A stretch of 64,000 nucleotides of DNA, from assembly GCA_041288195.1 (NCBI GenBank), contig JBGGME010000045.1, forward strand, positions 4,247-68,246, written 5' to 3'. This DNA comes from Hyphomicrobiaceae bacterium. GTDB taxonomy: Bacteria; Pseudomonadota; Alphaproteobacteria; Rhizobiales; Hyphomicrobiaceae. Under the pieces are notes generated by a model. That model was given only the letters and a program-made list of their open reading frames with translations. It ran no database searches and had not been told where the DNA came from. The position numbers were made by a program, and so were the translations under genes. Below are positions 1 to 62,019 of this stretch, piece after piece (position 1 is the stretch's first letter; each line of letters starts with the position of its first letter).

Positions 1-116
1 CTGGCGGTGCCGGATGCCGGCCTATGCCGGGCGGCGGCAGCATCGAATTGAGTTGTATGCGATCTGCAATCAGGCGAAGATGCCCCTCCAGATCAGCAAT
101 TTTTTGGAAGTGTACC

Positions 117-923
117 TTGGTAGCACCGACAGCTCTAATTACCGGGATTACCGGGCAGGATGGGGCACATTTGGCCCGCTTGCTTCTCGAGAAAGGTTAC
201 ACCGTCCACGGTGTCAAGCGCCGCTCCTCCTCGTTCAATACCGCACGTGTCGACGACCTGTACGTCGATCCGCACGAACATCAGACGCGCTTTTTCATGC
301 ACTATGGCGATCTGACAGATGCCACCAACCTCATTCGGCTCATCCAAGAACACCAACCTTGCGAGATCTACAATCTGGCGGCGCAGAGCCATGTCGCGGT
401 GAGCTTCGAGACGCCCGAGTACACGGCGAATGCCGACGCGCTCGGCACGTTACGGCTACTTGAAGCAATCCGAATTCTGGGCATCAAGGAGCGCACGCGC
501 TTCTATCAAGCCTCCACCTCTGAGCTCTACGGGAAGGTGCAGGAGGTGCCGCAGCGCGAGACCACCCCATTCTACCCACGATCTCCCTATGCCGCGGCGA
601 AGCTCTATGCGTACTGGATTACCGTCAATTACCGCGAAGCGTATGGCATGCATGCCTCGAATGGCATCCTCTTCAATCATGAGGGGCCAATGCGTGGCGA
701 GACGTTCGTCACCCGCAAAATCACGCGCGCGGTGGCGGCGATCGAGCGGGGCCTGCAGGAACGGCTGTATCTCGGGAACCTCAACGCCAAGCGCGACTGG
801 GGCCATGCGCGCGATTTCGTCGAGGGCATGTGGCTGATGATGCTGCAAGCCCAGCCCGACGACTACGTGCTGGCCACGGGGGAGATGCATTCCGTGCGGG
901 AGTTCGTGGAGCGGGCGTTCGGA
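117..923 (+). pseudogene. gmd: GDP-mannose 4,6-dehydratase, 3'-truncated remnant
   Basis: ORF 24..1049 carries [10 protein letters not shown] (Rossmann), YAAAK and [16 protein letters not shown] motifs. Similarity stops after REFVERAFG (~nt 923) and the last ~60-90 aa of the family are missing. Probable TTG start at 117. Lower G+C than backbone by eye. Confidence 0.7.
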
Positions 924-990
924 TGCATCGATCGCAAGGCTTCAAGAAGAATGCGACGTGATCGGAAGATGATGGAAAGTTGCGGAAATT

Positions 991-2061
991 CTACCCGGTT
1001 TGTTCCAGGGAGTTGTAGTGCTGTTCCAGGCGTCCCAGCGCGTCCGTGAGCGCCGGGAGGTAGTGGTAGCGGTTGTAGACTGTGTTCAGTTTGGGCGGGG
1101 TGTGGGAGAGCAAGCGCTCGGCAATGTTCTCCTGGACGCCGAGGCGGGCGAGATTCGTGCGGGCGGTACGGCGCAGGTCGTGCAAGGTCCAGTGGGGGAG
1201 CTTCACCCGTCGGTCGAGCTCCGCCTTTCCCCGGCTCCACGCCTGATAGGGGGTCGGACCGAAGACGCAGAGGTAATCAGTGCGCTCGATGAGTGCCTGG
1301 AGCTTGGGGGTAAGAGGGATCATGTGCTGCTGGTTCGACTTCATGTCCTCCTTTGGCCAGGTGATCGTCTTCTCGGCGTAATTGCAGTACGTCCGTTGCA
1401 GCTTGGACACCTGAGTCCTACGCTGCGCCGAGTAGATGAGGAACTGGACGAGGTTGTTAAACTGGCCGTTGTCGGTCGTAGCAGCGAGGATCTGGGCTAT
1501 CTCGGCGTCGGATAGCGTCCGCTCCCTGGAGGTTCGCCTATAGGGGGATTTGAGGCCGAAAAGAGGGCTCTTGTGGAGATACTGGCGTTCGTTCACGCAC
1601 CAGTTGAGGAATGCCTTGAATAGGGTGAAGGCATGGGCTTGCTGTGAGGGGGTGAGGTCCTTGAGTGCGTCGTGGATGGTTGCAGCGGTGAGGCTGGAGA
1701 GCGAAGCGCCCCTCGGAAAGTGCTTGTGGAGATGGTGGCGGATCTGGATGAGGGAGCCGTGTCGGATCCGGGTCGCTTGGAAGTCGAGGTAGGCGGCGAT
1801 TGCGGTCGCGGTCGGGGGGCAGGATGGCGGGAAATACTTGAGGGCGATTCGGCGGTACGCCTCTTCCCTCGCCTGTTTGAGTGTGACAGAAGGCCATCGC
1901 CCGATGATCTGGTATTTGTTCTGCTTCTTGAGTACGAAGGTCTTCGTGCGGCGCTGCACGCGGATCCCGAACGCGGGCAGTGCATCCCAGACGACGTACT
2001 GCTTGTCGCTGAAGGGGAGTTGGCGGATGGAGAGGTCGTTGAGCGGTTCGCGGCGAGACAC
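991..2061 (-). CDS. Tyrosine recombinase / phage-type (P4-like) integrase
   Basis: C-terminal catalytic signature: R in SAQRRTQ, HDLRRT, LSH, YNRYHY. N-terminal arm-binding-like [18 protein letters not shown]. Start taken at GTG 2061; the longer ORF to 2268 would overlap atpA. Confidence 0.85.
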
Positions 2062-2206
2062 TTTTGAGACACTTTCGGGGGTGTTTCGGCGAGGTTCCAA
2101 AGGGTACCGCAGTCTGACGGGTGTGGCGAGAAAAATGTGATGGATGAGGGACTTAGGCTCCGCGACCTTCCGCGACGTTCCGCAAACGAATGAAAGGTAT
2201 TGCCTG

Positions 2207-3739
2207 ATGGACATTCGCGCCTCAGAGATCACCTCGATCCTGAAAGAGCAGATCAAGAACTTCGGCAAGGAAGCCGAGGTCTCCGAGATCGGTCAGGTGC
2301 TGTCGGTCGGCGACGGCATCGCCCGCGTGTATGGCCTCGACAAGGTGCAGGCCGGCGAGATGGTGGAGTTCCCGGGCGGCATGCGCGGCATGGCGCTCAA
2401 CCTCGAGGCCGACAACGTCGGCGTCGTCATCTTCGGCGACGACCGCGGCATCAAGGAAGGCGACACAGTCAAGCGCACCGGCGCCATCGTCGAGGTGCCG
2501 GTCGGCAAGGGCCTGCTCGGCCGCGTCGTCGACGCCCTCGGCAATCCCATCGACGGCAAGGGCCCCATCAAGTCCGACACCCGCATGCGCGTCGACGTCA
2601 AGGCGCCGGGCATCCTGCCGCGCAAGTCCGTGCACGAGCCGATGGCGACCGGCCTCAAGGCCATCGACGCGCTGATCCCCGTCGGCCGCGGCCAGCGCGA
2701 ACTCATCATCGGCGACCGCCAGACCGGCAAGACCGCCATCATCCTCGACACCTTCCTCAACCAGAAGTCGATCAACCAGAGCACCGACGAGAAGGTGAAG
2801 CTCTACTGCGTCTACGTCGCCGTCGGACAGAAGCGCTCCACCGTCGCCCAGTTCGTCAAGGTGCTGGAGGAGAGAGGGGCACTCGAGTACTCGATCGTGG
2901 TGGCCGCCACCGCCTCCGACCCCGCGCCGATGCAGTACCTGGCACCGTTCACCGGCTGCACCATGGGCGAATACTTCCGCGACAACGGCATGCACGCCGT
3001 GATCGCCTACGACGACCTCTCCAAGCAGGCCGTCGCCTACCGCCAGATGTCGCTGCTGCTGCGCCGCCCGCCGGGCCGCGAGGCCTATCCCGGCGACGTC
3101 TTCTACCTCCATTCGCGCCTGCTGGAACGCGCCGCCAAGCTCAACGAGGGCCACGGCGCGGGCTCGCTCACCGCGCTTCCCGTGATCGAGACCCAGGCCA
3201 ACGACGTCTCCGCCTACATCCCGACCAACGTGATCTCCATCACGGATGGCCAGATCTTCCTCGAGACCGACCTCTTCTATCAGGGCATCCGCCCCGCCGT
3301 GAACGTCGGCATCTCCGTGTCGCGCGTCGGCTCCTCGGCGCAGATCAAGGCCATGAAGCAGGTGGCCGGCCGCATCAAGGGCGAGCTTGCCCAGTACCGC
3401 GAGATGGCGGCCTTCGCTCAGTTCGGCTCCGACCTCGACGCCGTGACGCAGAGGCTTCTGGCGCGTGGCTCGCGTCTGACCGAGCTCTTGAAGCAGCCGC
3501 AGTTCTCGCCGCTCAAGGTCGAGGAGCAGGTAGCCGTGATCTTCGCGGGCACGCGCGGCTATCTGGACCCGATCCCGGTTGCCGCGGTCGGCAAGTTCGA
3601 GCAGCAGCTGCTGCGCCTCCTGCGCGAGGAGCATGGCTCCCTGCTCGGCGACATCGCCACCAAGAAGGAGATCACCGCCGACACCGAGAAGAAGCTCGTC
3701 GGCGTGCTCGACAATTTCGCCAAGAACTTCGCGGCGTGA
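2207..3739 (+). CDS. atpA: F1 ATP synthase alpha subunit
   Basis: [17 protein letters not shown]-terminus, Walker A GDRQTGKT, ~510 aa. Start at internal ATG 2207 of ORF 2144..3739, preceded by GAAAGG. Confidence 0.97.
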
Positions 3740-7154: not shown

Positions 7155-8826
7155 GGGCAAAATTCCTTATGTGTCCACGTAGGCTTCTCTGCGCCGACTG
7201 GTGACCGGGAGGCGGCGGTAGAACGCGAAGGGCGAAGCCTCCACGGTAAATATCCACATGCGGTAGATGCCTTTGATGACTACGAGCACCATCGCGGCGT
7301 GAAACCAGAACAATAGTTGGCCGCTCAGGATGCCATCTGCGATCGGGTCCAGATTTTCCAGCAAGCCTGGAACGCGCACCAGCACGTAGAGTATCAGTGG
7401 GACGTTTACCGCAGCCTGCGACAACAGGGTGATGACGATGCGGGCGGCCGACGCATTCTGCAGACCATAGATCACGTTGAGTGCAATCTGCATCGACGCA
7501 AACGCCAGCACTATGCAGCCGGTCCAATAGATCAGCCGGCGAAACGCCCACCAGATGCGCTTGCGGAACGTGTCCTGGGCGATGAATTCCCGGTCGCGCT
7601 CGTTCACGCGCCTAGCCAGTCCCTCGGCCAGCCAAGCCCGCTGCTCTCGCGGGCAAAGCCAGAAAAGCCAGTTGAAGATCCTATCCATATGGGTCGTGTA
7701 CACGATGCCGCCGAGGAACGTGATGAGCGCCATAAGCGAGATCGCGAACAGTGTTTGCGGCCATACGGGCAAGCCGAATGCCTGGCCCATGTGGTGCAGC
7801 ACGACGCGCAGCCCCTGCCATCCCGTCATCTCGGCGAGTGGGAAAATGGCGGTGAGCAGCCAGATCAGCCCCACCAGGATCGTGATCGCCCAGACAACGA
7901 CGGCGATCGAGGCGGAGGCGAGAACTGCGAACGCTTGGCCAACTGTAGCTTTGAGCGCTCGCCACAGCTCACGCAACCCGAGGATGCCCGAGATGCGCAG
8001 AGTGCTGCCGGGAAAGACGGGCGGCTCGCGCAGCGCTTCGCTCTCGTAGAGGAGTTCGGGATTGGTGAGGCTCGGGAGATATGTGGAGGTCGGGAGCCGG
8101 AAGTCGGCGGCGAAGAGTCCCCGCCTGTATTGGACCACGATGCGGCCGGTGACTCGAAGGTATGGCACCTGGCGCATCTTCAGCTTCGTGACCGCGAAAC
8201 ATCGGCGGTCGCGTTCCTCGAGGTAGTGCCATACGGCACCCTGCGCCAGGCACACGTCGGTGCAGCCTGGCGGCGGTTGTCCATCGGGGCCACCGCTCAA
8301 TGCGCCGAGCTGGGAAAACCGCAAATCGTCGGCGGTCTGCGGCACCCCGAAATGCGCGGGTCCCTCGTTGAGATTGGTGAGGATCGGGTCGTATTGCGGC
8401 GTAAACGCGTAGTAGAAATTCAGATAGTCGAGGACAATGCCTCTGAGTTCTTCCTCGTCGGTCGGCAGCGAAAGGGAGCACTCGCGATTTGCCCGATCGA
8501 CGCTGCCCGTCTCGTTGGCCATTGGGACGAGACGCAGGTGGTTACTGGGCTGACGCTGCTGCGCAACGAAATAGATGCGGTCGGGACGCGCTGCGCCGCT
8601 GTGATCCAGGCGCTCAAGATAGACGAGCCAGGCGGTGCGATAAAAGCGTAGCGGTGTGCCCCGCAGGACCCATTTGTCTGCCGATCTTGCATCTTTGAGG
8701 TCGGACTTCCTCGCGACTTGGCCCCTGATTTGACGCTCAAGCCCATCAGACAACTCCACAAACTCGCACGCCACGGCGTCCCCCGATTGTGTGCACAAAT
8801 AGCATATCATAGGAGGGCAAAATTCC
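7155..8826. mobile_element. Single-gene insertion cassette bounded by an exact 12-bp direct repeat GGGCAAAATTCC
   Basis: GGGCAAAATTCC occurs at 7155..7166 (abutting the stop codon at 7167) and at 8815..8826 (4 nt upstream of ATG 8810). The interior looks lower in G+C than the flanks. No recombinase inside. Confidence 0.45.
7167..8810 (-). CDS. Hypothetical protein: ~290-aa soluble N-terminal domain plus ~5-6 TM C-terminal domain
   Basis: 547-aa ORF with coherent codon usage. N-terminus has CYLCTQSGDAVAC. C-terminal half has long hydrophobic stretches (AVLASASIAVVVWAITILVGLIWLL, LFAISLMALITFLGGIV, etc.). No family recognised. No obvious SD. Confidence 0.75.
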   Translation of the reverse strand: MICYLCTQSGDAVACEFVELSDGLERQIRGQVARKSDLKDARSADKWVLRGTPLRFYRTAWLVYLERLDHSGAARPDRIYFVAQQRQPSNHLRLVPMANETGSVDRANRECSLSLPTDEEELRGIVLDYLNFYYAFTPQYDPILTNLNEGPAHFGVPQTADDLRFSQLGALSGGPDGQPPPGCTDVCLAQGAVWHYLEERDRRCFAVTKLKMRQVPYLRVTGRIVVQYRRGLFAADFRLPTSTYLPSLTNPELLYESEALREPPVFPGSTLRISGILGLRELWRALKATVGQAFAVLASASIAVVVWAITILVGLIWLLTAIFPLAEMTGWQGLRVVLHHMGQAFGLPVWPQTLFAISLMALITFLGGIVYTTHMDRIFNWLFWLCPREQRAWLAEGLARRVNERDREFIAQDTFRKRIWWAFRRLIYWTGCIVLAFASMQIALNVIYGLQNASAARIVITLLSQAAVNVPLILYVLVRVPGLLENLDPIADGILSGQLLFWFHAAMVLVVIKGIYRMWIFTVEASPFAFYRRLPVTSRRREAYVDT

Positions 8827-44228: not shown

Positions 44229-44337
44229 GTCATTCCCGCCAAGCGCAGCGCAGAGCGGGAATCCAGCCTCAGACACCACAATCGTCATTGATCGCCGCTG
44301 GATTCCCGCTGACGCGCTGCGCGCTCGCGGGAATGAC
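44229..44337. repeat. Family A-type nested palindrome (variant GTCATTCCCGC...GCGGGAATGAC)
   Basis: gtcattcccgc/gcgggaatgac termini and gcgggaatccag/ctggattcccgc inner arms. Confidence 0.6.
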
Positions 44338-44345
44338 AACGCGCC

Positions 44346-44984
44346 CTACTGGATGAACGGGTTGTTCTGCCGCTCCTCGCCGAGCGTGCTCATGGGGCCG
44401 TGGCCGCAGATGAACACGAGGTCGTCGCCGAGGGGGAGCAGCTTGGTCTTGATGGCCGAGATCAGCGCGTCGTGGTCGCCGTAGGGAAAGTCGGTGCGGC
44501 CGATCGAGCCCTGGAACAGCACGTCGCCGACCAGCGCAAAGCGCTGCGCGTCGTTGACCAGCACCACCGAGCCCGGCGAATGGCCCGGGCAGTGCAGGAT
44601 CTTGAACGTGTTGCCGGCCACCGTCACGGTGTCGCCCTCATCGAGCCAGCGGTCCGGCGTGACATTGCGCATGCCGGGCACCCCCATGCTCAGCCCCTGA
44701 GCGGCGAGGCCATCGAGCAGGAACTTGTCGGCCTGGTGCGGGCCCTCGATGGGGATGCCGCCGAGCTTCTCCTTGAGCTCGGCCGCGCCGCCGGCGTGAT
44801 CGAGATGGCCATGGGTGAGGATGATCTTCTCCAGCGTCATGCCGGTCTGCTTGATGCCGGCCTCGATGCGGGCAAGGTCGCCGCCGGGATCGACCACGGC
44901 GCCCACCTTGCTCGCCTCGTCCCACAGCAGCGTGCAGTTCTGCTGGAACGGCGTGACGGGAACGATGGCGGCTTTGAGCGGCAT
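44346..44984 (-). CDS. MBL-fold hydrolase (glyoxalase II-like)
   Basis: THGHLDHAGG motif, 212 aa. Internal ATG 44984 of ORF 44346..45179. Confidence 0.8.
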   Translation of the reverse strand: MPLKAAIVPVTPFQQNCTLLWDEASKVGAVVDPGGDLARIEAGIKQTGMTLEKIILTHGHLDHAGGAAELKEKLGGIPIEGPHQADKFLLDGLAAQGLSMGVPGMRNVTPDRWLDEGDTVTVAGNTFKILHCPGHSPGSVVLVNDAQRFALVGDVLFQGSIGRTDFPYGDHDALISAIKTKLLPLGDDLVFICGHGPMSTLGEERQNNPFIQ

Positions 44985-45096
44985 GTGGGGGTTGCCTCGC
45001 GCTGCGGAGGGGCCAGTCCTAGTCGAAGCGGAGGGGGCGGTCCACCACAGTATTACCGCCGGGCGAAGACAGAATGGCATCCCATGAGGCAGCGCG

Positions 45097-45876
45097 TCAG
45101 TACGCCCTATCCATACGGTAGTTGGCCTGTCGTGCCAACTGATCGAAGGTGAACACGGCAGGATCGTCACTCTTCCCAAACTTGCTAATGAACCGCTTCT
45201 TCTCTTCGAGATTCAAGAGGCCCCATCTACCAAGAATAACCGCATATTGAACCACAGGGTCCGCGGCGCCACCAAAACTTTCCCACATTTGTCGAAGACG
45301 TGTCTGGTCTCCGAAACGATATCCAGAATTGCTGGTCTGCACACCGTCGTACAGCACCAATCCACATGCTCGGTCGATTAAGTCACGACAAAAGGTTAGC
45401 TTGTTTGCACCCAACCATTCCCGCCAAGAGTCTATTTGTGTCAGAGCGGATTGTAGCCGCCGGGCGGGTGATAAGGCGCTCGTGAGTATAGGTTCATGGG
45501 CAGTCTCTATCTCGATGAGACGGACACCTGCCCCGCCTTGGCTAACCTGGACGATGGCGAAGTCCGCGACATATTTCGTTCCAATTTTCGGCTTTGCGAT
45601 CAAGGCCAAGTCACCAGCATCGTTCATTCCAAACAAGCCCATCAAGAAACCAGGACGCTGAATTAGAAACGTCTGTAGTTCCTCTTCCGGAGGATCTTTG
45701 GAGAGCACCGTACACAATGCATAGAGGTCTTGCGCATTAGGCGGCTGGCAACGGAGTCCGGTGGCTTCGAAATAGAGATCGGTACCCAGAGGGAGAATTG
45801 ACTCGAGAATCTCCTGCGCCGCTGGTGACAGCGCCTCTAAGGTCTGGCTCTTCTCTTCCTCCTGCTTGATTGGCAT
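45097..45876 (-). CDS. DUF4263/Shedu-like PD-(D/E)xK nuclease-fold protein, short form
   Basis: ADFAIV...VRLIEIET...LTQIDSWREWL...AVILGRWG...VFTFDQL is colinear with my recollection of the SduA C-terminal domain. The gene is markedly AT-richer than its neighbours. Confidence 0.55.
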   Translation of the reverse strand: MPIKQEEEKSQTLEALSPAAQEILESILPLGTDLYFEATGLRCQPPNAQDLYALCTVLSKDPPEEELQTFLIQRPGFLMGLFGMNDAGDLALIAKPKIGTKYVADFAIVQVSQGGAGVRLIEIETAHEPILTSALSPARRLQSALTQIDSWREWLGANKLTFCRDLIDRACGLVLYDGVQTSNSGYRFGDQTRLRQMWESFGGAADPVVQYAVILGRWGLLNLEEKKRFISKFGKSDDPAVFTFDQLARQANYRMDRAY

Positions 45877-45883
45877 GGACGCC

Positions 45884-46990
45884 TCACATCTCGCGCAGGC
45901 CGTGCGCGATGATCTTGCGCATGACGCTCGGCAGGGCGACGCGGTCGAGGTCGCGGCGGGGGACCCATTCGCAGCGCTGCGGATCGGCCCAGAAGGTGAG
46001 CGCCGCGTCGATCCCCACCAGTGAGCGATAGACCAGCGACTCGAGCTTGAAGTGCGTGAAGGTGTGGCTCACCACCCCCGGCACCCCCCACCATTCCGCC
46101 CGCACCGGCGCTCCCCGCATCGCCTCGTCGAGCGGGGGCAGCGTCTCCGCCCATTCGGTGGAGGGCACCTCCAGCATGCCGCCGAGCAGGCCCGCCTCGG
46201 GGCGCCGCCGGAGCAGCACCGCGCCGTCCTCGCGCAAGGTGAGGAAGGCGAGCCCGACGCGCACGGGACGCTCGGGCCGCGCCGCCCTCGCCGGCAGCGC
46301 GCTCTCGAGTCCGCGGGCATAGGCTGCGCAGTCGCCCTGCAGCGGGCACATCAGGCACGAGGGTCGCTTGGGCGTGCACAGCCCGGCGCCGAGGTCCATC
46401 AGCGCCTGCGCGAAATCGCCCGCGCGCCGGGCCGGCGTCAGCGTGGCGGCGAGTCGCCTGATCTCGGGCTTGGCGGCGGGCAGGGGTGTCGCCACCGCGA
46501 ACAACCGGGCGACCACGCGCTCGATGTTGCCGTCCACAGGCGTGGCGCGCGCGCCGAAGGCGATGGCTGCGATCGCCGCCGCCGTGTAGGGGCCGATGCC
46601 CGGCAGCGCGCGAAGGCCCTCCTCCGTTTCCGGAAAGCGGCCGCCCAGCTCGCCGGCGACGACCTTGGCGCACTTGTGCAGGTTCCGCGCGCGGCTGTAG
46701 TAGCCGAGCCCCGCCCAGGCCGCGAGCACATCGTCCAGCGACGCCTCGGCCAGCGCCTCCACGTTCGGCCAGCGCGCCAGGAATGCCTCGTAGAAGGGGA
46801 TGACCGCCTTGACCGTGGTCTGCTGCAGCATCACCTCGGACAGCCACACCCGGTATGGGTCGGGCGTCCTGCCCTTGCGCGCCCGCCACGGCAGGTCGCG
46901 CCGCTCGCTGTCGTACCAATAGAGCAGGGCCGCCGCGGCCTGTGGGCCCGCGAACCTGAATTGCAGTTGCTTTCTCGCCACACTTGGCAT
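45884..46990 (-). CDS. mutY: A/G-specific adenine DNA glycosylase
   Basis: YRVWLSEVMLQQTTV, HhH-GPD GIGPYTAAAI, Fe-S cysteines CTPKRPSCLMCPLQGDC. Confidence 0.92.
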   Translation of the reverse strand: MPSVARKQLQFRFAGPQAAAALLYWYDSERRDLPWRARKGRTPDPYRVWLSEVMLQQTTVKAVIPFYEAFLARWPNVEALAEASLDDVLAAWAGLGYYSRARNLHKCAKVVAGELGGRFPETEEGLRALPGIGPYTAAAIAAIAFGARATPVDGNIERVVARLFAVATPLPAAKPEIRRLAATLTPARRAGDFAQALMDLGAGLCTPKRPSCLMCPLQGDCAAYARGLESALPARAARPERPVRVGLAFLTLREDGAVLLRRRPEAGLLGGMLEVPSTEWAETLPPLDEAMRGAPVRAEWWGVPGVVSHTFTHFKLESLVYRSLVGIDAALTFWADPQRCEWVPRRDLDRVALPSVMRKIIAHGLREM

Positions 46991-47107
46991 GGGCCTGCAG
47001 GGCCTCGTTCCGGCCGCAGCACGAATCGTCTACGCGATGGTAGGCGCGGCGCAGTCGCGTGGGAACCGGACTCCGAGGTCCGCTGCGCGAGTGTTGGGGA
47101 GCAAATC

Positions 47108-47695
47108 GTGAACTCACCGCCGAAGCCTGGCGCACAACGTCCGCGCGAGACCGTTGCATTTGCACGCAAGCGCCCCAATCCGCTGTTCGGGGTCAAGGTC
47201 GTGGGCAGCTTCCTGCCGGGACTCACCCGCAAAGCCTTCGAGAAATACGGGTTTTCCACGGCCACCCTGATCACGGACTGGGCAGCCATCGCTGGCGCCG
47301 AGCTTGCGGCCTATTCCGTTCCCGAGCGCCTGAAATGGCCGCACAGGCCCGAGCGTACCGAGGAGGATGCCGCGCCGACCGCCCGGCGCGATACCAAGGC
47401 CCGCCAGGGGGCCACGCTGGTGCTGAGGGTCGATGGCGCCCGGGCGCTGGACGTGCAGTACAAGGCCGGCCAGATCATCGAGCGCATCAACGCGTATTTC
47501 GGCTACGCCGCCGTCGCCCAGCTCAGAATCATCCAGGCGCCGATCGGTGCCGCCTCTTCCGCGATCCCGCCTGCGGCAACCAAGCCGGCCGAGCCGCTGA
47601 CGCGGGAAGTGGCCCATATCGCCGATCCCGGCCTGCGCGAAGCGCTCGCCCGCCTCGGCGCCAACGTCCAGTCGAGCGCCCGCGCCGGCCGCTGA
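47108..47695 (+). CDS. DUF721 (DciA-like) domain protein
   Basis: LITDWAAIAGAELAAYSVPERL...ATLVLRVDGARALDVQY pattern. Conserved position next to mutY in alphaproteobacteria. GTG start. Confidence 0.65.
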   Translation: MNSPPKPGAQRPRETVAFARKRPNPLFGVKVVGSFLPGLTRKAFEKYGFSTATLITDWAAIAGAELAAYSVPERLKWPHRPERTEEDAAPTARRDTKARQGATLVLRVDGARALDVQYKAGQIIERINAYFGYAAVAQLRIIQAPIGAASSAIPPAATKPAEPLTREVAHIADPGLREALARLGANVQSSARAGR

Positions 47696-59293: not shown

Positions 59294-60505
59294 CTAAGTA
59301 GCCAAGCGATGGCGCGCGGCTCGCTGGGCGCCTTCGTACCATCTCGACATCAGCTCGATCGCCAGCCACGTCGCGATCGCGCAGCCCAGCAAGGCGTAGA
59401 GCGCGATCTGCCATCCGACGCGGTCGACGACCAGGGCGAATATCGCCGGCGCGAAGGCGTTGACGAGCAGCACCGGCGTCGCGATCAGCCCCAGCACGGT
59501 GCCGTAGCCCTGGGCGCCGAACAGCGCCAACGGGACGGCGCCGCGAACGATCGTGACGACCCCCTGCGAGGCCCCCAGCAGCAGCGTGAAAGCGATGAGC
59601 TGCCAAAGGTCGCCCCGCGCCAGCAGCAGCAGCACCAGCGCTGCCGGCAACACGCCTATGGCGATGCGCGCGATGGTCATTGCCTTGAGGTTGCGGCCGA
59701 AGAATATCTCGACGAGCCGGCCGGCGAACTGGCCATGGCCCTTGAGCGAGGCAACCCACACCGCCGCAGCAGCAGCCAGACCCGCCGCCTCGAGCAGCGG
59801 CACGAGCTGCAGCGACACGACGCCGAAGACGAAGCCGTTGAGCGACATGATGAGCGCAAAAAGAACCATGCCGACGATGCGCATGCGGCCCTCGAGCACG
59901 GGGCCATCCGGCGAGGTCTGGGTAGGCTTGGGGGCGGCCGTCTCCGTCGTCGACTCGCGCCACGAGAGACCGAGCCAGTTGAGCGGCAGGCAGATTGCAA
60001 GGTTGATGCCCGCGAAGATCATCAGCGTGCCGCGCCAGCCATAGGCGTCGTTCAGATAGTGGCCGATCACCCAGAAGACCGTGGAGGCGTAGGCGCCATA
60101 GAGCGTGAGGTATGAGATGGCCGCGCGGCCGCGCGTCGGCGTCACCTGCACCAGGGCGGCAAACGCCGCGTCGTAGAGGCAGCAACGCATGCCCACGCCG
60201 ATCACCGCCCACACCGCCAGCCAGCTCGCCTGATCGCGAACCTGCGACAGCGCAAGCAGCCCGGCCGAGACAATGACCGTGCCGACCGACATCACCGCGC
60301 GGGCGCCGGCCCGATCAATGAGCCGGCCAACCCATGTCGAGATGAAGCCCATCGTCAGGAGCGCGACCGTGAAGCCGAGAAACACCGTGCTGGAGCTCCA
60401 GCCGGTCTCGGCGACGATCGGCTTTGCCAGGACGCCCAGGCAGTAGTAGCTGGTGCCCCAAGCCGTGATCTGGGTAATGCCAAGCGCGTTGACCGCGATC
60501 ACCAT
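59294..60505 (-). CDS. MFS transporter
   Basis: ~12 TM segments with an MFS loop motif (GRLIDRAGAR). Start is an internal ATG at 60505. Confidence 0.8.
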   Translation of the reverse strand: MVIAVNALGITQITAWGTSYYCLGVLAKPIVAETGWSSSTVFLGFTVALLTMGFISTWVGRLIDRAGARAVMSVGTVIVSAGLLALSQVRDQASWLAVWAVIGVGMRCCLYDAAFAALVQVTPTRGRAAISYLTLYGAYASTVFWVIGHYLNDAYGWRGTLMIFAGINLAICLPLNWLGLSWRESTTETAAPKPTQTSPDGPVLEGRMRIVGMVLFALIMSLNGFVFGVVSLQLVPLLEAAGLAAAAAVWVASLKGHGQFAGRLVEIFFGRNLKAMTIARIAIGVLPAALVLLLLARGDLWQLIAFTLLLGASQGVVTIVRGAVPLALFGAQGYGTVLGLIATPVLLVNAFAPAIFALVVDRVGWQIALYALLGCAIATWLAIELMSRWYEGAQRAARHRLAT

Positions 60506-60602
60506 GGGGTCGGCCCGCCAGCGGCGCCCCAACCCAACATCCCCCTGCATGCTTGCCGGCCTCCGATCTTGACATCTAATGTTCTAGTGGTATGGATATT
60601 AC

Positions 60603-60935
60603 ATGATTGGACGCAAGCAGCAACGGGAACAAGCAGCCGCCGACGCCCTGGCGGCGCTGGGCAACCGCACCCGTCTGCGCATTTTCAAGCTCCTCGTCCG
60701 CGCTGGTCGCGAGGGGGTGAACATCGGCACCCTACAACGCATGCTCGGCATTCCCGCAACAACTCTTGGCCACCATCTGGGCACGCTTGCGAAGGCGGGT
60801 CTGGTCGACCAAGAGCGTCGCAGCCGCGAGGTGATCTGCACCGCCAACTACAAGGCCGTGAACGAAATCCTGGACTACGTCCGCGAGGAATGCTGCGCCG
60901 GCCTCGAAACTGGCGAAGACACCGAGGCGGCGTGA
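60603..60935 (+). CDS. ArsR/SmtB family transcriptional regulator with C-terminal Cys pair
   Basis: ALGNRTRLRIFKLL, wHTH GIPATTLGHHLGTLAKAGLV, C-terminal EECCAG. Confidence 0.85.
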   Translation: MIGRKQQREQAAADALAALGNRTRLRIFKLLVRAGREGVNIGTLQRMLGIPATTLGHHLGTLAKAGLVDQERRSREVICTANYKAVNEILDYVREECCAGLETGEDTEAA

Positions 60936-60942
60936 TTTTTTT
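60896..60942 (+). terminator. Terminator-like hairpin plus T7 spanning the arsR-like stop codon
   Basis: CGCCGGCCTCG...CGAGGCGGCG stem (one bulge, 16-nt loop), then TGA and TTTTTTT (60936..60942), 37 nt before the permease ATG. Confidence 0.35.
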
Positions 60943-60978
60943 GGCTCAAAACATCTAGTAACCTAGAGGAATAGATAC

Positions 60979-62019
60979 ATGTCGATCCAGACGATCTTGG
61001 CAGAAGCCCGCGAGTGGCGCTCTCTTCGGCTCGACCCGGCCTGGGTTGCGGTGGCGGCCATCTTCGCTGCCCTTGCCGCAACCGTGCCGCAGCAAGCAGC
61101 GCTCTCGGCGGTGTTCACGGCCAAGGCGGTCTGGAGCGTCCTGCCCTTCTTTGCTTTGTCGATCGGCCTTGCGGCCTATGCAAAGGCAACGGGTGCCGAG
61201 AACCTCATCGCCAAGGCGTTCTCGGGTAGGGCGGAGCTGATGGTCCTGTTTGCGAGCCTGATGGGTGCGCTATCGCCCTTCTGCTCGTGCGGCGTCATTC
61301 CCATCATCGCAGCGCTGCTTGCATCTGGTGTCCCACTCGCCCCAGTGATGGCCTTCTGGCTGGCGTCCCCGCTCATGGACCCGTCCATGTTCGCCATCAC
61401 CGCCGGGGTGCTCGGCTTTCAGTTTGCGGTCGCCAAGACCATTGCGGCGGTTGCCATCGGGCTGCTGGGCGGCTTCGGCGTGCTGGCGATACAGCGCTTC
61501 GGAATCCTGGTCGGTCCATCGCTGCGTGACGGCATCGGCAATGGCGGCTGCGCGGGGTCGAAGATTCGCAATCCCAAGGCGGTCGCCTGGCGCTATTGGC
61601 AGGAACCCGCCCGACGAGAGGCCTTCTGGACCAGCGCGCGGCAGAACGCGCTCTTTCTCGGGAAGTGGCTCGTTCTCGCCTTCGTGCTCGAAAGCCTGAT
61701 GGTTGCCTATGTGCCCAGGGATCTGGTGGCGAGCGTCGCCGGCGATGGCGGCTTCCTGTCGATCTTGGGCGCCACGCTCGTCGGCATTCCGAGCTACCTC
61801 AACGGCAACGCCGCTCTGCCCCTCGTCGCGGGGTTGATGGCCAAAGGCATGGCTCCCGGGGCCGCCATGGCGTTCCTCGTCGGCGGCGGGGTGACGTCCA
61901 TCCCTGCGGCGCTCGCGGTGTGGGGCGTGGCGCGGCGGGCCGTGTTTGCAGCCTATCTCGGATTTGCAACGCTGGGCGCCATACTCTCAGGGCTCCTGTT
62001 CCAGATCGCAGTCGGCTGA
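60979..62019 (+). CDS. Permease of the UPF0718/ArsP-like family
   Basis: Polytopic membrane protein with SPFCSCGVIP, resembling the FCSC motif of ArsP-type permeases. Confidence 0.7.
   Translation: MSIQTILAEAREWRSLRLDPAWVAVAAIFAALAATVPQQAALSAVFTAKAVWSVLPFFALSIGLAAYAKATGAENLIAKAFSGRAELMVLFASLMGALSPFCSCGVIPIIAALLASGVPLAPVMAFWLASPLMDPSMFAITAGVLGFQFAVAKTIAAVAIGLLGGFGVLAIQRFGILVGPSLRDGIGNGGCAGSKIRNPKAVAWRYWQEPARREAFWTSARQNALFLGKWLVLAFVLESLMVAYVPRDLVASVAGDGGFLSILGATLVGIPSYLNGNAALPLVAGLMAKGMAPGAAMAFLVGGGVTSIPAALAVWGVARRAVFAAYLGFATLGAILSGLLFQIAVG

What the first reader, a model, noticed from the sequence alone, without database searches (positions are those of the whole stretch)
45097..45876. Low-G+C Shedu/DUF4263-like nuclease gene inserted into the conserved mutY / gloB-like neighbourhood
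- **Composition:** The 259-aa ORF is visibly much AT-richer than its neighbours, roughly half G+C by eye.
- **Position:** It starts only 7 nt after the mutY stop, inside a block (mutY, DUF721, dsbA, smc) that is conserved in alphaproteobacteria.
- **Similarity:** ADFAIV..VRLIEIET..LTQIDSWREWL..AVILGRWG..VFTFDQL is colinear with the PD-(D/E)xK nuclease core and C-terminal tail of Shedu SduA (DUF4263).
- **Differences:** The expected ExK appears as E-I-E-T, so the Lys position is not conserved. The N-terminal region (~110 aa) is far shorter than in characterised Shedu proteins.
- **Interpretation:** It may be a minimal or divergent Shedu variant transcribed by read-through from mutY.
Basis: partly seen in the sequence, partly recalled or inferred. 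Interest (0 to 1): 0.62.

Follow-up and report, generated by a model that had tools for sequence, protein, structure and literature searches.

The report
Minimal Shedu-type nuclease gene behind mutY
A single foreign-looking gene just behind the DNA-repair gene mutY encodes a short member of the known Shedu family of anti-phage nucleases; it belongs to a large, untested branch in which a normally essential catalytic lysine is always a glutamate.

Summary
The ORF is real: 45097-45876, minus strand, 259 aa. Its GC3 is 0.56 against 0.92-0.93 in its neighbours, and it starts 7 nt after the mutY stop.

**Family.** It passes Pfam SduA_C/DUF4263 (36.3 bits, cut-off 27) and PADLOC SduA. Its AlphaFold model finds the B. 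cereus Shedu nuclease domain as best PDB match.

**Motifs.** All Shedu motifs are present except the motif III lysine, giving E64-x3-Q68, D105, E122-x-E124 and Q147. This is not decay. E-x-E is invariant in 128 of 135 related cluster representatives, and dN is 0.18 with saturated dS.

**Type.** It is a nuclease-only ("Type 2") Shedu of an uncharacterised E-x-E branch, like BamHI's Asp/Glu/Glu site.

mutY and gloB are adjacent in none of 19 same-genus genomes checked. The gene lies at the edge of the conserved DciA-mutY block.

**New here.**
- Homologs 76% and 70% identical also sit directly behind mutY in other lineages.
- More distant ones sit 3-12 nt behind thiC or lprI.
- All are low in G+C and lack mobility genes.
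- One metatranscriptome fragment spans the mutY/ORF junction.

**Verdict.** An acquired, probably read-through-expressed defence nuclease. It is a variant of a known kind and of moderate interest.

The parts
45097..45876 (-). Short (259 aa) Shedu-family (DUF4263, SduA_C) PD-(D/E)xK-fold nuclease gene of the nuclease-only 'Type 2' form. Low G+C (0.53; GC3 0.56).
   Evidence: - ORF and translation.
- Pfam PF14082: 36.3 bits against a cut-off of 27, residues 63-247.
- PADLOC SduA PDLC00378: E 7e-15.
- AlphaFold2 model: pLDDT 78.
- Best Foldseek PDB hit: 8ti9_C, Shedu nuclease domain, probability 1.0.
- Composition.
45505..45513 (-). Motif III codons GAG-ATA-GAG, giving E122-I123-E124. Glu sits where canonical Shedu has the catalytic Lys (B. 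cereus K266, E. coli K285).
   Evidence: - Sequence.
- A profile alignment places LIEIET on LI(A)IKT of 8ti9.
- E122 and E124 are invariant in 128 of 135 aligned cluster representatives.
45562..45564 (-). Motif II Asp (D105, in ADFAIV).
   Evidence: Invariant in all 135 aligned representatives. Corresponds by order and spacing to D249 of B. cereus Shedu (paper 10.1101/2023.08.10.552793).
45673..45687 (-). Motif I, E64-x3-Q68 (PPEEELQTF).
   Evidence: E64 is present in 124 of 128 E-x-E representatives. The E-x3-Q spacing matches E226/Q230 of E. coli SduA (paper 10.1101/2023.08.10.552762). The correspondence is inferred from order and spacing, not from a superposition.
45424..45438 (-). Motif IV, Q147-x3-W151 (TQIDSW), on the long alpha-C helix (residues 136-171).
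   Evidence: Q147 and W151 are invariant in all 128 E-x-E representatives. Q147 aligns to the TQV of 8ti9. The helix appears in the model.
45877..45886 (-). The mutY stop codon (45884-45886) plus the 7-nt spacer. A GAGG Shine-Dalgarno-like element (45882-45885) overlaps the stop, 5 nt before the ATG.
   Evidence: - Sequence.
- No promoter-like site anywhere in 44300-47300, and no terminator-like site between mutY and the ORF.
- A metatranscriptome contig of run X26 spans 45787-45937.
45884..46990 (-). mutY (A/G-specific adenine glycosylase), the co-directional upstream gene and the likely source of transcription.
   Evidence: Pfam HhH-GPD, HHH and NUDIX_4. Conserved with divergent DciA in relatives.
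45048..45096 (-). Short 3' tail of the foreign segment, between the ORF stop and the native gloB upstream region.
   Evidence: An alignment of gloB upstream regions from 16 genomes shows homology resuming at the TGGACC motif. The acquired DNA is therefore at most 45048-45883, about 836 nt.
45017..45044 (-). Native promoter-like motif TGGACC-N16-CTAGGA upstream of the gloB-like gene. It is not part of the insert and marks its boundary.
   Evidence: Conserved upstream of gloB in most of 16 same-genus loci that have different upstream genes.
44346..44984 (-). Metallo-beta-lactamase-fold hydrolase (GloB-like), the downstream neighbour.
   Evidence: Pfam Lactamase_B, E 2e-33. Its neighbours differ in all relatives.

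Best explanation
**What it is.** The ORF encodes a nuclease-only ('Type 2') member of the Shedu/SduA (DUF4263) family. It belongs to a large sub-branch whose metal-binding site is Glu64 / Asp105 / Glu122-x-Glu124 / Gln147, not the usual D...E-x-K.

**How it got here (inferred).** It was acquired horizontally as a promoterless piece of DNA of about 0.8 kb holding one gene. It was placed directly behind the mutY stop codon.

**Expression (weakly shown).** It is transcribed by read-through from mutY and translated from its own GAGG site.

**Mechanism (inferred).**
- The protein assembles through its DUF4263 domain into a homotetramer, as other Shedu proteins do.
- It cleaves or nicks invading phage or plasmid DNA in a divalent-metal-dependent reaction.
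- Glu124 takes over the role of the lysine, as Glu113 does in BamHI.
- It has no sensor domain, so self/non-self discrimination must come from elsewhere. Candidates are substrate features such as DNA ends, sequence or modification, or low read-through-limited expression.

**Shown:** family membership, fold, motif content, conservation, purifying selection, rarity, foreign composition, and the junction in DNA and in one RNA fragment.

**Inferred:** nuclease activity, oligomeric state, defence role, and the mode of discrimination.
For: **Family and fold**
- Pfam SduA_C is above its cut-off, and seven PADLOC SduA models hit.
- The best PDB fold match is 8ti9, followed by FokI, Hachiman HamA, PaqCI, Bse634I and BamHI, all PD-(D/E)xK nucleases.
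- The model shows a five-strand core and a long alpha-C helix.

**Active site kept under selection**
- E64, D105, E122, E124, Q147 and W151 are invariant or nearly so in 128 E-x-E representatives at 50% clustering.
- Against a 76%-identical homolog, dN is 0.18 while dS is saturated.

**Accessory and foreign**
- GC3 is 0.56 against 0.92.
- It is the only PF14082 match in its own genome.
- It is found in 1 other of 41 genus genomes and 4 of 400 order genomes.
- Homologs in other genomes are also low-G+C solo genes among housekeeping genes.

**Real arrangement**
- Contigs from independent soil metagenomes span gloB, the ORF and mutY.

**Expression**
- Pieces of the gene occur in four RNA-type runs, and one spans the mutY stop and the ORF start.
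- No promoter-like or terminator-like site lies at the junction.

**Precedent**
- Shedu nuclease activity is required for defence, and Type 2 forms exist (2,286 of 7,687 homologs) (papers 10.1101/2023.08.10.552793 and 10.1101/2023.08.10.552762).
Against: - The motif III lysine is essential in E. coli SduA (K285A abolishes immunity and cleavage) and is absent here.
- No E-x-E Shedu is described in the three Shedu papers read here.
- The gene is not in a defence island. No restriction-modification, BREX, transposase or prophage genes adjoin it.
- B. cereus Shedu without its N-terminal domains is toxic, so a sensor-less enzyme needs some other restraint that I could not identify.
- The sequence match to the solved Shedu structure is weak: E 0.75 by profile and Foldseek E 1.8e-3.
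- The RNA evidence is one 151-nt assembled piece at depth 3 from a metatranscriptome. DNA carry-over cannot be excluded, and the runs were chosen because they hold the gene.
Confidence: 0.6

Rival explanations
1. It is a selfish, homing-type or site-targeting nuclease cassette. The short E-x-E DUF4263 gene spreads as a promoterless single gene into a defined site just behind conserved housekeeping genes, here the mutY 3' end. It might do so by cutting empty alleles and being copied in by recombinational repair, as free-standing homing endonucleases do. Any defence effect would be secondary.
For: - It is a single-gene insert of at most about 836 nt, with no integrase, transposase or repeats at its ends.
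- The same position, directly behind the mutY stop, holds homologs of 76% and 70% identity in other lineages.
- Nucleotide identity is lower in the nuclease gene (69%) than in the last 90 nt of mutY, stop codon included (82%).
- The mutY tail has an ordinary dS of 0.46, while dS of the nuclease gene is saturated.
- Other homologs sit 3-12 nt behind thiC, lprI and one unidentified gene.
- Low G+C persists in all hosts.
Against: - Sharing the mutY site is equally explained by one old acquisition followed by vertical descent.
- The mutY comparison rests on 29 codons, and GC3-constrained host genes understate dS.
- No empty-site cleavage can be tested here.
- The insertion sites differ between more distant homologs, and some are not tightly coupled.
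- The DUF4263 proteins tested in the papers read here are defence nucleases.
Confidence: 0.1
2. It is a catalytically dead or repurposed DUF4263 protein. Loss of the lysine would have turned the branch into a DNA-binding or regulatory protein rather than a nuclease.
For: - The lysine is essential in E. coli SduA and is replaced here.
- There is no toxicity-restraining sensor domain, yet the gene is stably kept in many soil samples.
Against: - All four acidic or amide metal-site residues, plus W151, are invariant across 128 diverged clusters. A dead site would not be expected to keep them.
- From my own knowledge, not tested here: Asp/Glu/Glu sites are active in BamHI (D94/E111/E113).
Confidence: 0.12
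3. It is a DNA-repair accessory nuclease working with MutY. Shedu's closest structural relative outside the family is the mismatch endonuclease EndoMS/NucS, and the gene is translationally close to mutY.
For: - The ORF starts 7 nt behind mutY on the same strand.
- The mutY linkage is repeated in two diverged homologs.
- The EndoMS resemblance of the Shedu fold is noted by Gu et al..
Against: - The gene is absent downstream of mutY in 23 relatives, and from 40 of 41 other genomes of the genus.
- More distant homologs follow unrelated genes: thiC, lprI and rlmN.
- The foreign codon usage argues against an integrated housekeeping role.
Confidence: 0.05

Closest known systems
Type 2 Shedu (DUF4263-only SduA homologs; Gu et al., bioRxiv 10.1101/2023.08.10.552793)
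   Same: - A single gene with only the DUF4263 nuclease domain and no recognisable sensor domain.
- Pfam SduA_C matches residues 63-247 of 259.
- These forms are proposed to be constitutively active and to recognise foreign DNA by sequence or modification.
   Different: - Motif III is E-x-E, not E-x-K.
- About 62 aa precede the domain, including a conserved helix (LSxxAQxVLxSILSLG).
- A clade-specific insert of about 35 aa lies between the alpha-C helix and the next strand (residues 172-207).
- It sits among housekeeping genes, not in a defence island, restriction-modification locus or transposon.
Bacillus cereus B4264 Shedu / SduA (PDB 8ti8, 8ti9; Type 1A)
   Same: - Best structural match of the model (8ti9_C: probability 1.0, TM 0.63 on the target).
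- Same order of motifs I-IV, with LIEIET aligning to LI(E)IKT and TQI to TQV.
- Both have the long alpha-C helix.
   Different: - Only 15% identity in the structural alignment.
- No sPC4/Whirly N-terminal domain and no linker domain.
- K266 is replaced by E124.
- The D-to-E spacing is 17 residues rather than 15, and there is no GGK motif in the motif II loop.
Escherichia coli SduA (Loeff et al., bioRxiv 10.1101/2023.08.10.552762)
   Same: The active-site pattern E-x3-Q ... D ... E-x-(K) ... Q is reproduced here as E64-x3-Q68, D105, E122, Q147.
   Different: - The E. coli enzyme has an N-terminal clamp that senses free DNA ends, and its K285 is essential.
- This protein has neither.
BamHI-type PD-(D/E)xK sites with Glu in place of Lys (D94/E111/E113; from my own knowledge)
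   Same: An Asp/Glu/Glu active site with E-x-E on the second core strand. BamHI appears among the weak fold matches (rank 23).
   Different: - No detectable sequence relationship.
- BamHI is a dimeric Type II restriction enzyme paired with a methyltransferase.
- No methyltransferase adjoins this gene.

Membership tests
Shedu / SduA (Pfam PF14082 SduA_C, DUF4263) | Significant match to the family profile above the curated threshold | tested here: met
   PF14082 scores 36.3 bits against a cut-off of 27, E 7.8e-9, covering profile positions 3-158 of 159. PADLOC SduA models hit down to E 7e-15.
Shedu / SduA (Pfam PF14082 SduA_C, DUF4263) | PD-(D/E)xK nuclease fold with a long alpha-C helix | tested here: met
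   The AlphaFold2 model (pLDDT 78) has strands at 88-94, 106-112, 115-124, 208-215 and 240-242, and a helix at 136-171. The top PDB match is the Shedu nuclease domain 8ti9_C, followed by other PD-(D/E)xK nucleases.
Shedu / SduA (Pfam PF14082 SduA_C, DUF4263) | Motif I Glu, motif II Asp, motif III Glu and motif IV Gln | tested here: met
   E64, D105, E122 and Q147 are present and invariant or nearly so in 128 relatives. E122 and Q147 align to the corresponding positions of 8ti9.
Shedu / SduA (Pfam PF14082 SduA_C, DUF4263) | Motif III catalytic Lys (E-x-K; K266 in B. cereus, K285 in E. coli) | tested here: not met
   The position is Glu124. It is Glu in 128 of 135 aligned relatives. In an unbiased Pfam sample of the class, 7 had E-x-K and 2 had E-x-E.
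Shedu / SduA (Pfam PF14082 SduA_C, DUF4263) | Homotetramer formed through the DUF4263 domain | not testable with these tools
   Only monomer prediction was available. Gu et al. report predicted tetramers for all Shedu types, as data not shown in their paper.
Shedu / SduA (Pfam PF14082 SduA_C, DUF4263) | Nuclease-dependent protection against phage | not testable with these tools
   This needs expression and plaque assays.
Type 2 Shedu (Gu et al.) | No additional domain besides DUF4263 | tested here: met
   No other Pfam or NCBIfam domain was found. Residues 1-62 hold only one short conserved helix and low-confidence linkers.
Defence-island or mobile-element cargo | Neighbouring defence or mobility genes | tested here: not met
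   The neighbours are MutY, DciA, DsbA-like proteins, SMC, an MBL hydrolase, GT87 and an Fe-S assembly protein. No flanking repeats beyond chance-level short matches.

The most novel reading that the evidence does not exclude
**Reading.** The short E-x-E DUF4263 genes may form a class of promoterless, single-gene cassettes. They would insert within a few nucleotides of the stop codon of conserved housekeeping genes:
- mutY in at least three diverged lineages;
- thiC and lprI in others.

**How they would persist and spread.**
- They would live off the host gene's transcription.
- They would keep a foreign base composition.
- Spread would be either homing-like (the nuclease cuts the empty site) or by recombination through the conserved flank.

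**What that would make them.** Selfish site-specific elements built from a Shedu nuclease, with an Asp/Glu/Glu active site.
Probability: 0.1. Interest if true: 0.7.

Novelty: new variant of a known kind. Interest (0 to 1): 0.36.

Why it matters
**The open question.** In the papers read here, Shedu is described as a D...E-x-K nuclease whose lysine is essential. This gene belongs to a broad branch, at least 128 clusters at 50% identity, in which that lysine is always glutamate while every other active-site residue is invariant.

**Why this gene is a good test case.**
- At 259 aa with no sensor domain, it is about the smallest form in which to ask whether an Asp/Glu/Glu Shedu site is active.
- It would also show which metal the site uses.
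- It raises the question of how a sensor-less Shedu avoids killing its host.

**The placement pattern.** Similar genes repeatedly sit tightly and without a promoter behind housekeeping genes, here mutY. This points to an unexplained way of acquiring and expressing single defence genes outside defence islands. Annotation pipelines that look for islands would overlook it.

**Limits.** The family assignment itself is ordinary, and PADLOC-type tools would call it Shedu.

Tried and rejected
**Searches that gave little**
- Direct sequence search of the PDB gave only a chance hit. A profile of the clade reached 8ti9 only at E 0.75.
- NCBIfam and PHROGs gave nothing meaningful.
- The genome-contig scan for relatives returned one distant locus, because the back-translated patterns were too narrow.
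- No DNA was retrievable for the contigs of P0004 and P0005. The mutY linkage of P0004 therefore rests on gene calls and a NUDIX_4 Pfam label.

**Ideas tested and dropped**
- An empty site between mutY and gloB in relatives does not exist, because the two genes are never neighbours there.
- A search for flanking direct or inverted repeats, target duplications or attC-like ends found only short chance-level matches. No end motif is shared between homolog loci.
- No promoter-like site was found anywhere in 44300-47300, and no terminator-like site at either end of the ORF.
- I asked whether a basic residue co-varies with E124 as a replacement for the lysine. R217 is also present in E-x-K relatives, so it is not a compensating change. 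Only W151 tracks the E-x-E state.
- The repair-partner-of-MutY idea was rejected, because more distant homologs follow unrelated genes.

**Measures that cannot be used**
- dN/dS cannot be quantified, because dS is saturated.
- Relative expression cannot be judged, because the RNA runs were chosen for holding the gene.

Full report
**1. The observation**

The window holds an intact 259-codon ORF at 45097-45876 on the minus strand.
- Its G+C is 0.526 and its GC3 0.562.
- GC3 of the neighbours is 0.92 for mutY, 0.93 for the gloB-like gene, 0.92 for GT87 and 0.93 for smc.
- In 500-nt windows it is the lowest-G+C stretch of the 64 kb, about four standard deviations below the mean.
- The ATG lies 7 nt after the TGA of mutY (45884-45886).
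- A GAGG overlaps that stop, 5 nt ahead of the ATG.

**2. Family assignment**

- Pfam SduA_C (PF14082, formerly DUF4263) matches residues 63-247 over nearly the whole profile. The score is 36.3 bits against a gathering cut-off of 27.
- Seven PADLOC SduA models hit, the best at E 7e-15.
- NCBIfam and PHROGs add nothing.
- An AlphaFold2 model built on 12 homologs has pLDDT 78 and pTM 0.78. It shows a five-strand core and a long helix at 136-171.
- The best match in the PDB is the B. cereus Shedu nuclease domain 8ti9_C (probability 1.0, TM 0.63 on the target).
- Other PD-(D/E)xK nucleases follow: FokI, Hachiman HamA, PaqCI, Bse634I and BamHI.

There is a significant PF14082 hit, and the fold is PD-(D/E)xK.

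**3. The active site**

Published Shedu motifs:

| Motif | B. cereus | E. coli SduA |
|---|---|---|
| I | E204 | E226/Q230 |
| II | D249 | D269 |
| III | E264/K266 | E283/K285 |
| IV | Q295 | Q314 |

In E. coli SduA the K285A mutation abolishes both defence and cleavage.

This protein has E64-x3-Q68, D105, E122-I-E124 and Q147-x3-W151.
- A profile of the clade aligns LIEIET to LI(A)IKT of the E264A construct in 8ti9, and TQI to TQV.

This is not degeneration.
- Among the best 150 representatives of 50%-identity clusters from 1.8 billion proteins, 137 read D...E-x-E and only 9 read E-x-K.
- In a MAFFT alignment of 135 of them:
  - D105, E122, E124, Q147 and W151 are invariant in all 128 E-x-E sequences;
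  - E64 is present in 124 of those 128.
- The sample is biased towards the query. In an unbiased Pfam search of 400 genomes of the class, 11 including the window's own had a match.
  - Seven of the readable motifs were E-x-K, all with high Pfam scores.
  - Two, including this gene, were E-x-E with low scores.
- E-x-E thus marks a divergent, sizeable minority branch of DUF4263.
- I looked for a compensating basic residue. R217 is nearly invariant but also occurs in the E-x-K neighbours, so it does not explain the change.
- From my own knowledge, Asp/Glu/Glu sites are active in BamHI (D94/E111/E113).

**4. Architecture**

- Nothing but DUF4263 is recognisable.
- Residues 1-62 contain one conserved short helix (LSxxAQxVLxSILSLG) and low-confidence linkers.
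- Roughly the first 45 hits of the exhaustive search are almost all 240-260 aa long, so this is a coherent short subfamily.
- It fits the 'Type 2' Shedu of Gu et al.: DUF4263 only, 2,286 of 7,687 homologs, and proposed to be constitutively active.

**5. Distribution and context**

*How common it is*
- It is the only PF14082 match in its own genome.
- One other of the 41 other genomes of the genus has a relative. That one is 40% identical and sits in an unrelated context.
- Four of 400 genomes of the order have only distant relatives.

*The neighbourhood*
- In 19 same-genus loci around gloB there is no mutY within 1.5 kb. Of three read in full, two have a cytochrome P450 and one an NAD kinase upstream.
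- Downstream of mutY in 23 loci of relatives there is no gloB. What follows varies between loci and includes long opposite-strand ORFs that I read by eye as permease-like or dioxygenase-like, without running any family search on them.
- Only the divergent DciA-mutY pair is conserved.
- gloB keeps a conserved upstream motif, TGGACC-N16-CTAGGA (45017-45044), in most relatives.
- That bounds the foreign DNA at no more than 45048-45883. This is about 836 nt, of which 780 are the ORF.
- No repeats, integrase or transposase flank it.

**6. A recurring placement**

*Behind mutY*
- The 76%-identical homolog (L070) also follows the mutY stop, after a 22-nt spacer. The last 29 MutY residues there are 80% identical to the window's.
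- The 70%-identical homolog follows, by 20 nt, a gene carrying the MutY C-terminal NUDIX_4 domain.

*Behind other genes*
- More distant homologs sit 3 nt behind thiC, 12 nt behind an LprI-family gene and 10 nt behind an unidentified gene.
- Another lies between rlmN and argG.

*Composition and divergence*
- All are lower in G+C than their surroundings.
- Between the window and L070 the nuclease gene is 69% identical in DNA, with dN 0.18 and saturated dS.
- The last 90 nt of mutY, stop codon included, are 82% identical; over its last 29 codons dS is 0.46.

*What follows*
- Purifying selection on the protein is clear.
- The shared mutY site could reflect one old acquisition or repeated insertion or replacement at a preferred site. 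These fragments cannot decide between the two.

**7. Reality of the junction, and expression**

- The stretch is present at 0.7-0.96 word share in 20 soil and rhizosphere metagenome runs from 13 studies.
- Single contigs from X8 (980 nt) and X11 (1005 nt), and an ENA contig (L053), span gloB, the ORF and mutY with at most one mismatch. The arrangement is therefore not an assembly chimera.
- All of them carry A at 45792, which gives P29S, towards the family consensus.
- Four RNA-type runs hold read-length pieces of the ORF.
- One piece, from metatranscriptome X26, covers 45787-45937. It crosses the mutY stop and the ORF start and carries the population allele.
- No promoter-like or terminator-like site lies at the junction.
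- Together this gives weak support for read-through from mutY.
- DNA carry-over cannot be excluded. The runs were chosen for holding the gene, so nothing can be said about expression level.

**8. Interpretation**

Best explanation (0.6): an acquired, promoterless, nuclease-only Shedu of the E-x-E branch. It is expressed from mutY's transcript and acts as a metal-dependent DNA nuclease against incoming DNA.

Rivals:
- a homing-like or site-targeting selfish cassette (0.1);
- a repurposed, non-catalytic DNA binder (0.12);
- a MutY-linked repair nuclease (0.05).

The main weakness is that no E-x-E Shedu is described in the three Shedu papers read here. It is also unexplained how a sensor-less Shedu spares the host, given that B. 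cereus Shedu without its N-terminal domains is toxic.

**9. Earlier notes of this scan**

- Earlier notes had flagged the Glu-for-Lys branch in several other genomes.
- I treated them as leads only. My own counts agree that the branch is widespread.

**10. Verdict**

- This is a member of the Shedu family by profile and fold.
- It fails one defining catalytic feature in a way shared by a whole branch, so I rate it a new variant of a known kind.
- Interest is moderate (0.36).
- Family assignment is routine and PADLOC would call it.
- The minimal E-x-E form and the repeated tight placement behind housekeeping genes are worth an experiment.

Noticed in passing
window 45017-45044 (minus strand), and loci L006-L024: A promoter-like motif, TGGACC-N16-CTAGGA, lies about 35-60 nt upstream of the gloB-like gene. 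It is conserved in most of 16 same-genus genomes even though the upstream gene differs in each. In the window a second copy of the 16-nt GCGGAGGGGCCAGTCC-type repeat lies 24 nt away.
   Followed up: partly
loci L026-L041 (downstream of mutY in relatives): The DNA just downstream of mutY is a synteny breakpoint in this genus. What follows mutY differs from genome to genome; by eye it includes permease-like and dioxygenase-like ORFs on the opposite strand. DciA-mutY upstream is always kept.
   Followed up: partly
L049 4200-6918: The 57%-identical homolog P0008 lies in a low-G+C islet of about 2.7 kb. Two further genes of 241 and 256 aa there have no Pfam match. The 256-aa gene is divergent from the nuclease gene by 46 nt and recurs in a second contig (L050). 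It could be a partner gene.
   Followed up: no
L070 905-935; L014, L016 and L018 upstream of gloB: A palindromic REP-like element, GTCATCCTCGGGCTTGTCCCGAGGATCC, recurs in intergenic regions of several genomes of this genus. One copy lies right behind the nuclease homolog in L070.
   Followed up: no
G002:C11:201760-202864: mutY of one same-genus genome matches in two overlapping pieces (residues 1-188 and 183-368). This suggests a frameshift or an assembly error in that genome's mutY.
   Followed up: no
window 1-2250, 7251-7750, 60501-61000: Three other stretches are more than 2 SD below the window's mean G+C (0.58-0.60). They are less extreme than the nuclease gene. I did not examine them.
   Followed up: no
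window 45792: All metagenome DNA contigs (X2, X8, X11) and the X26 RNA piece read A where the window has G. This gives Pro29Ser, which is the family consensus residue.
   Followed up: partly
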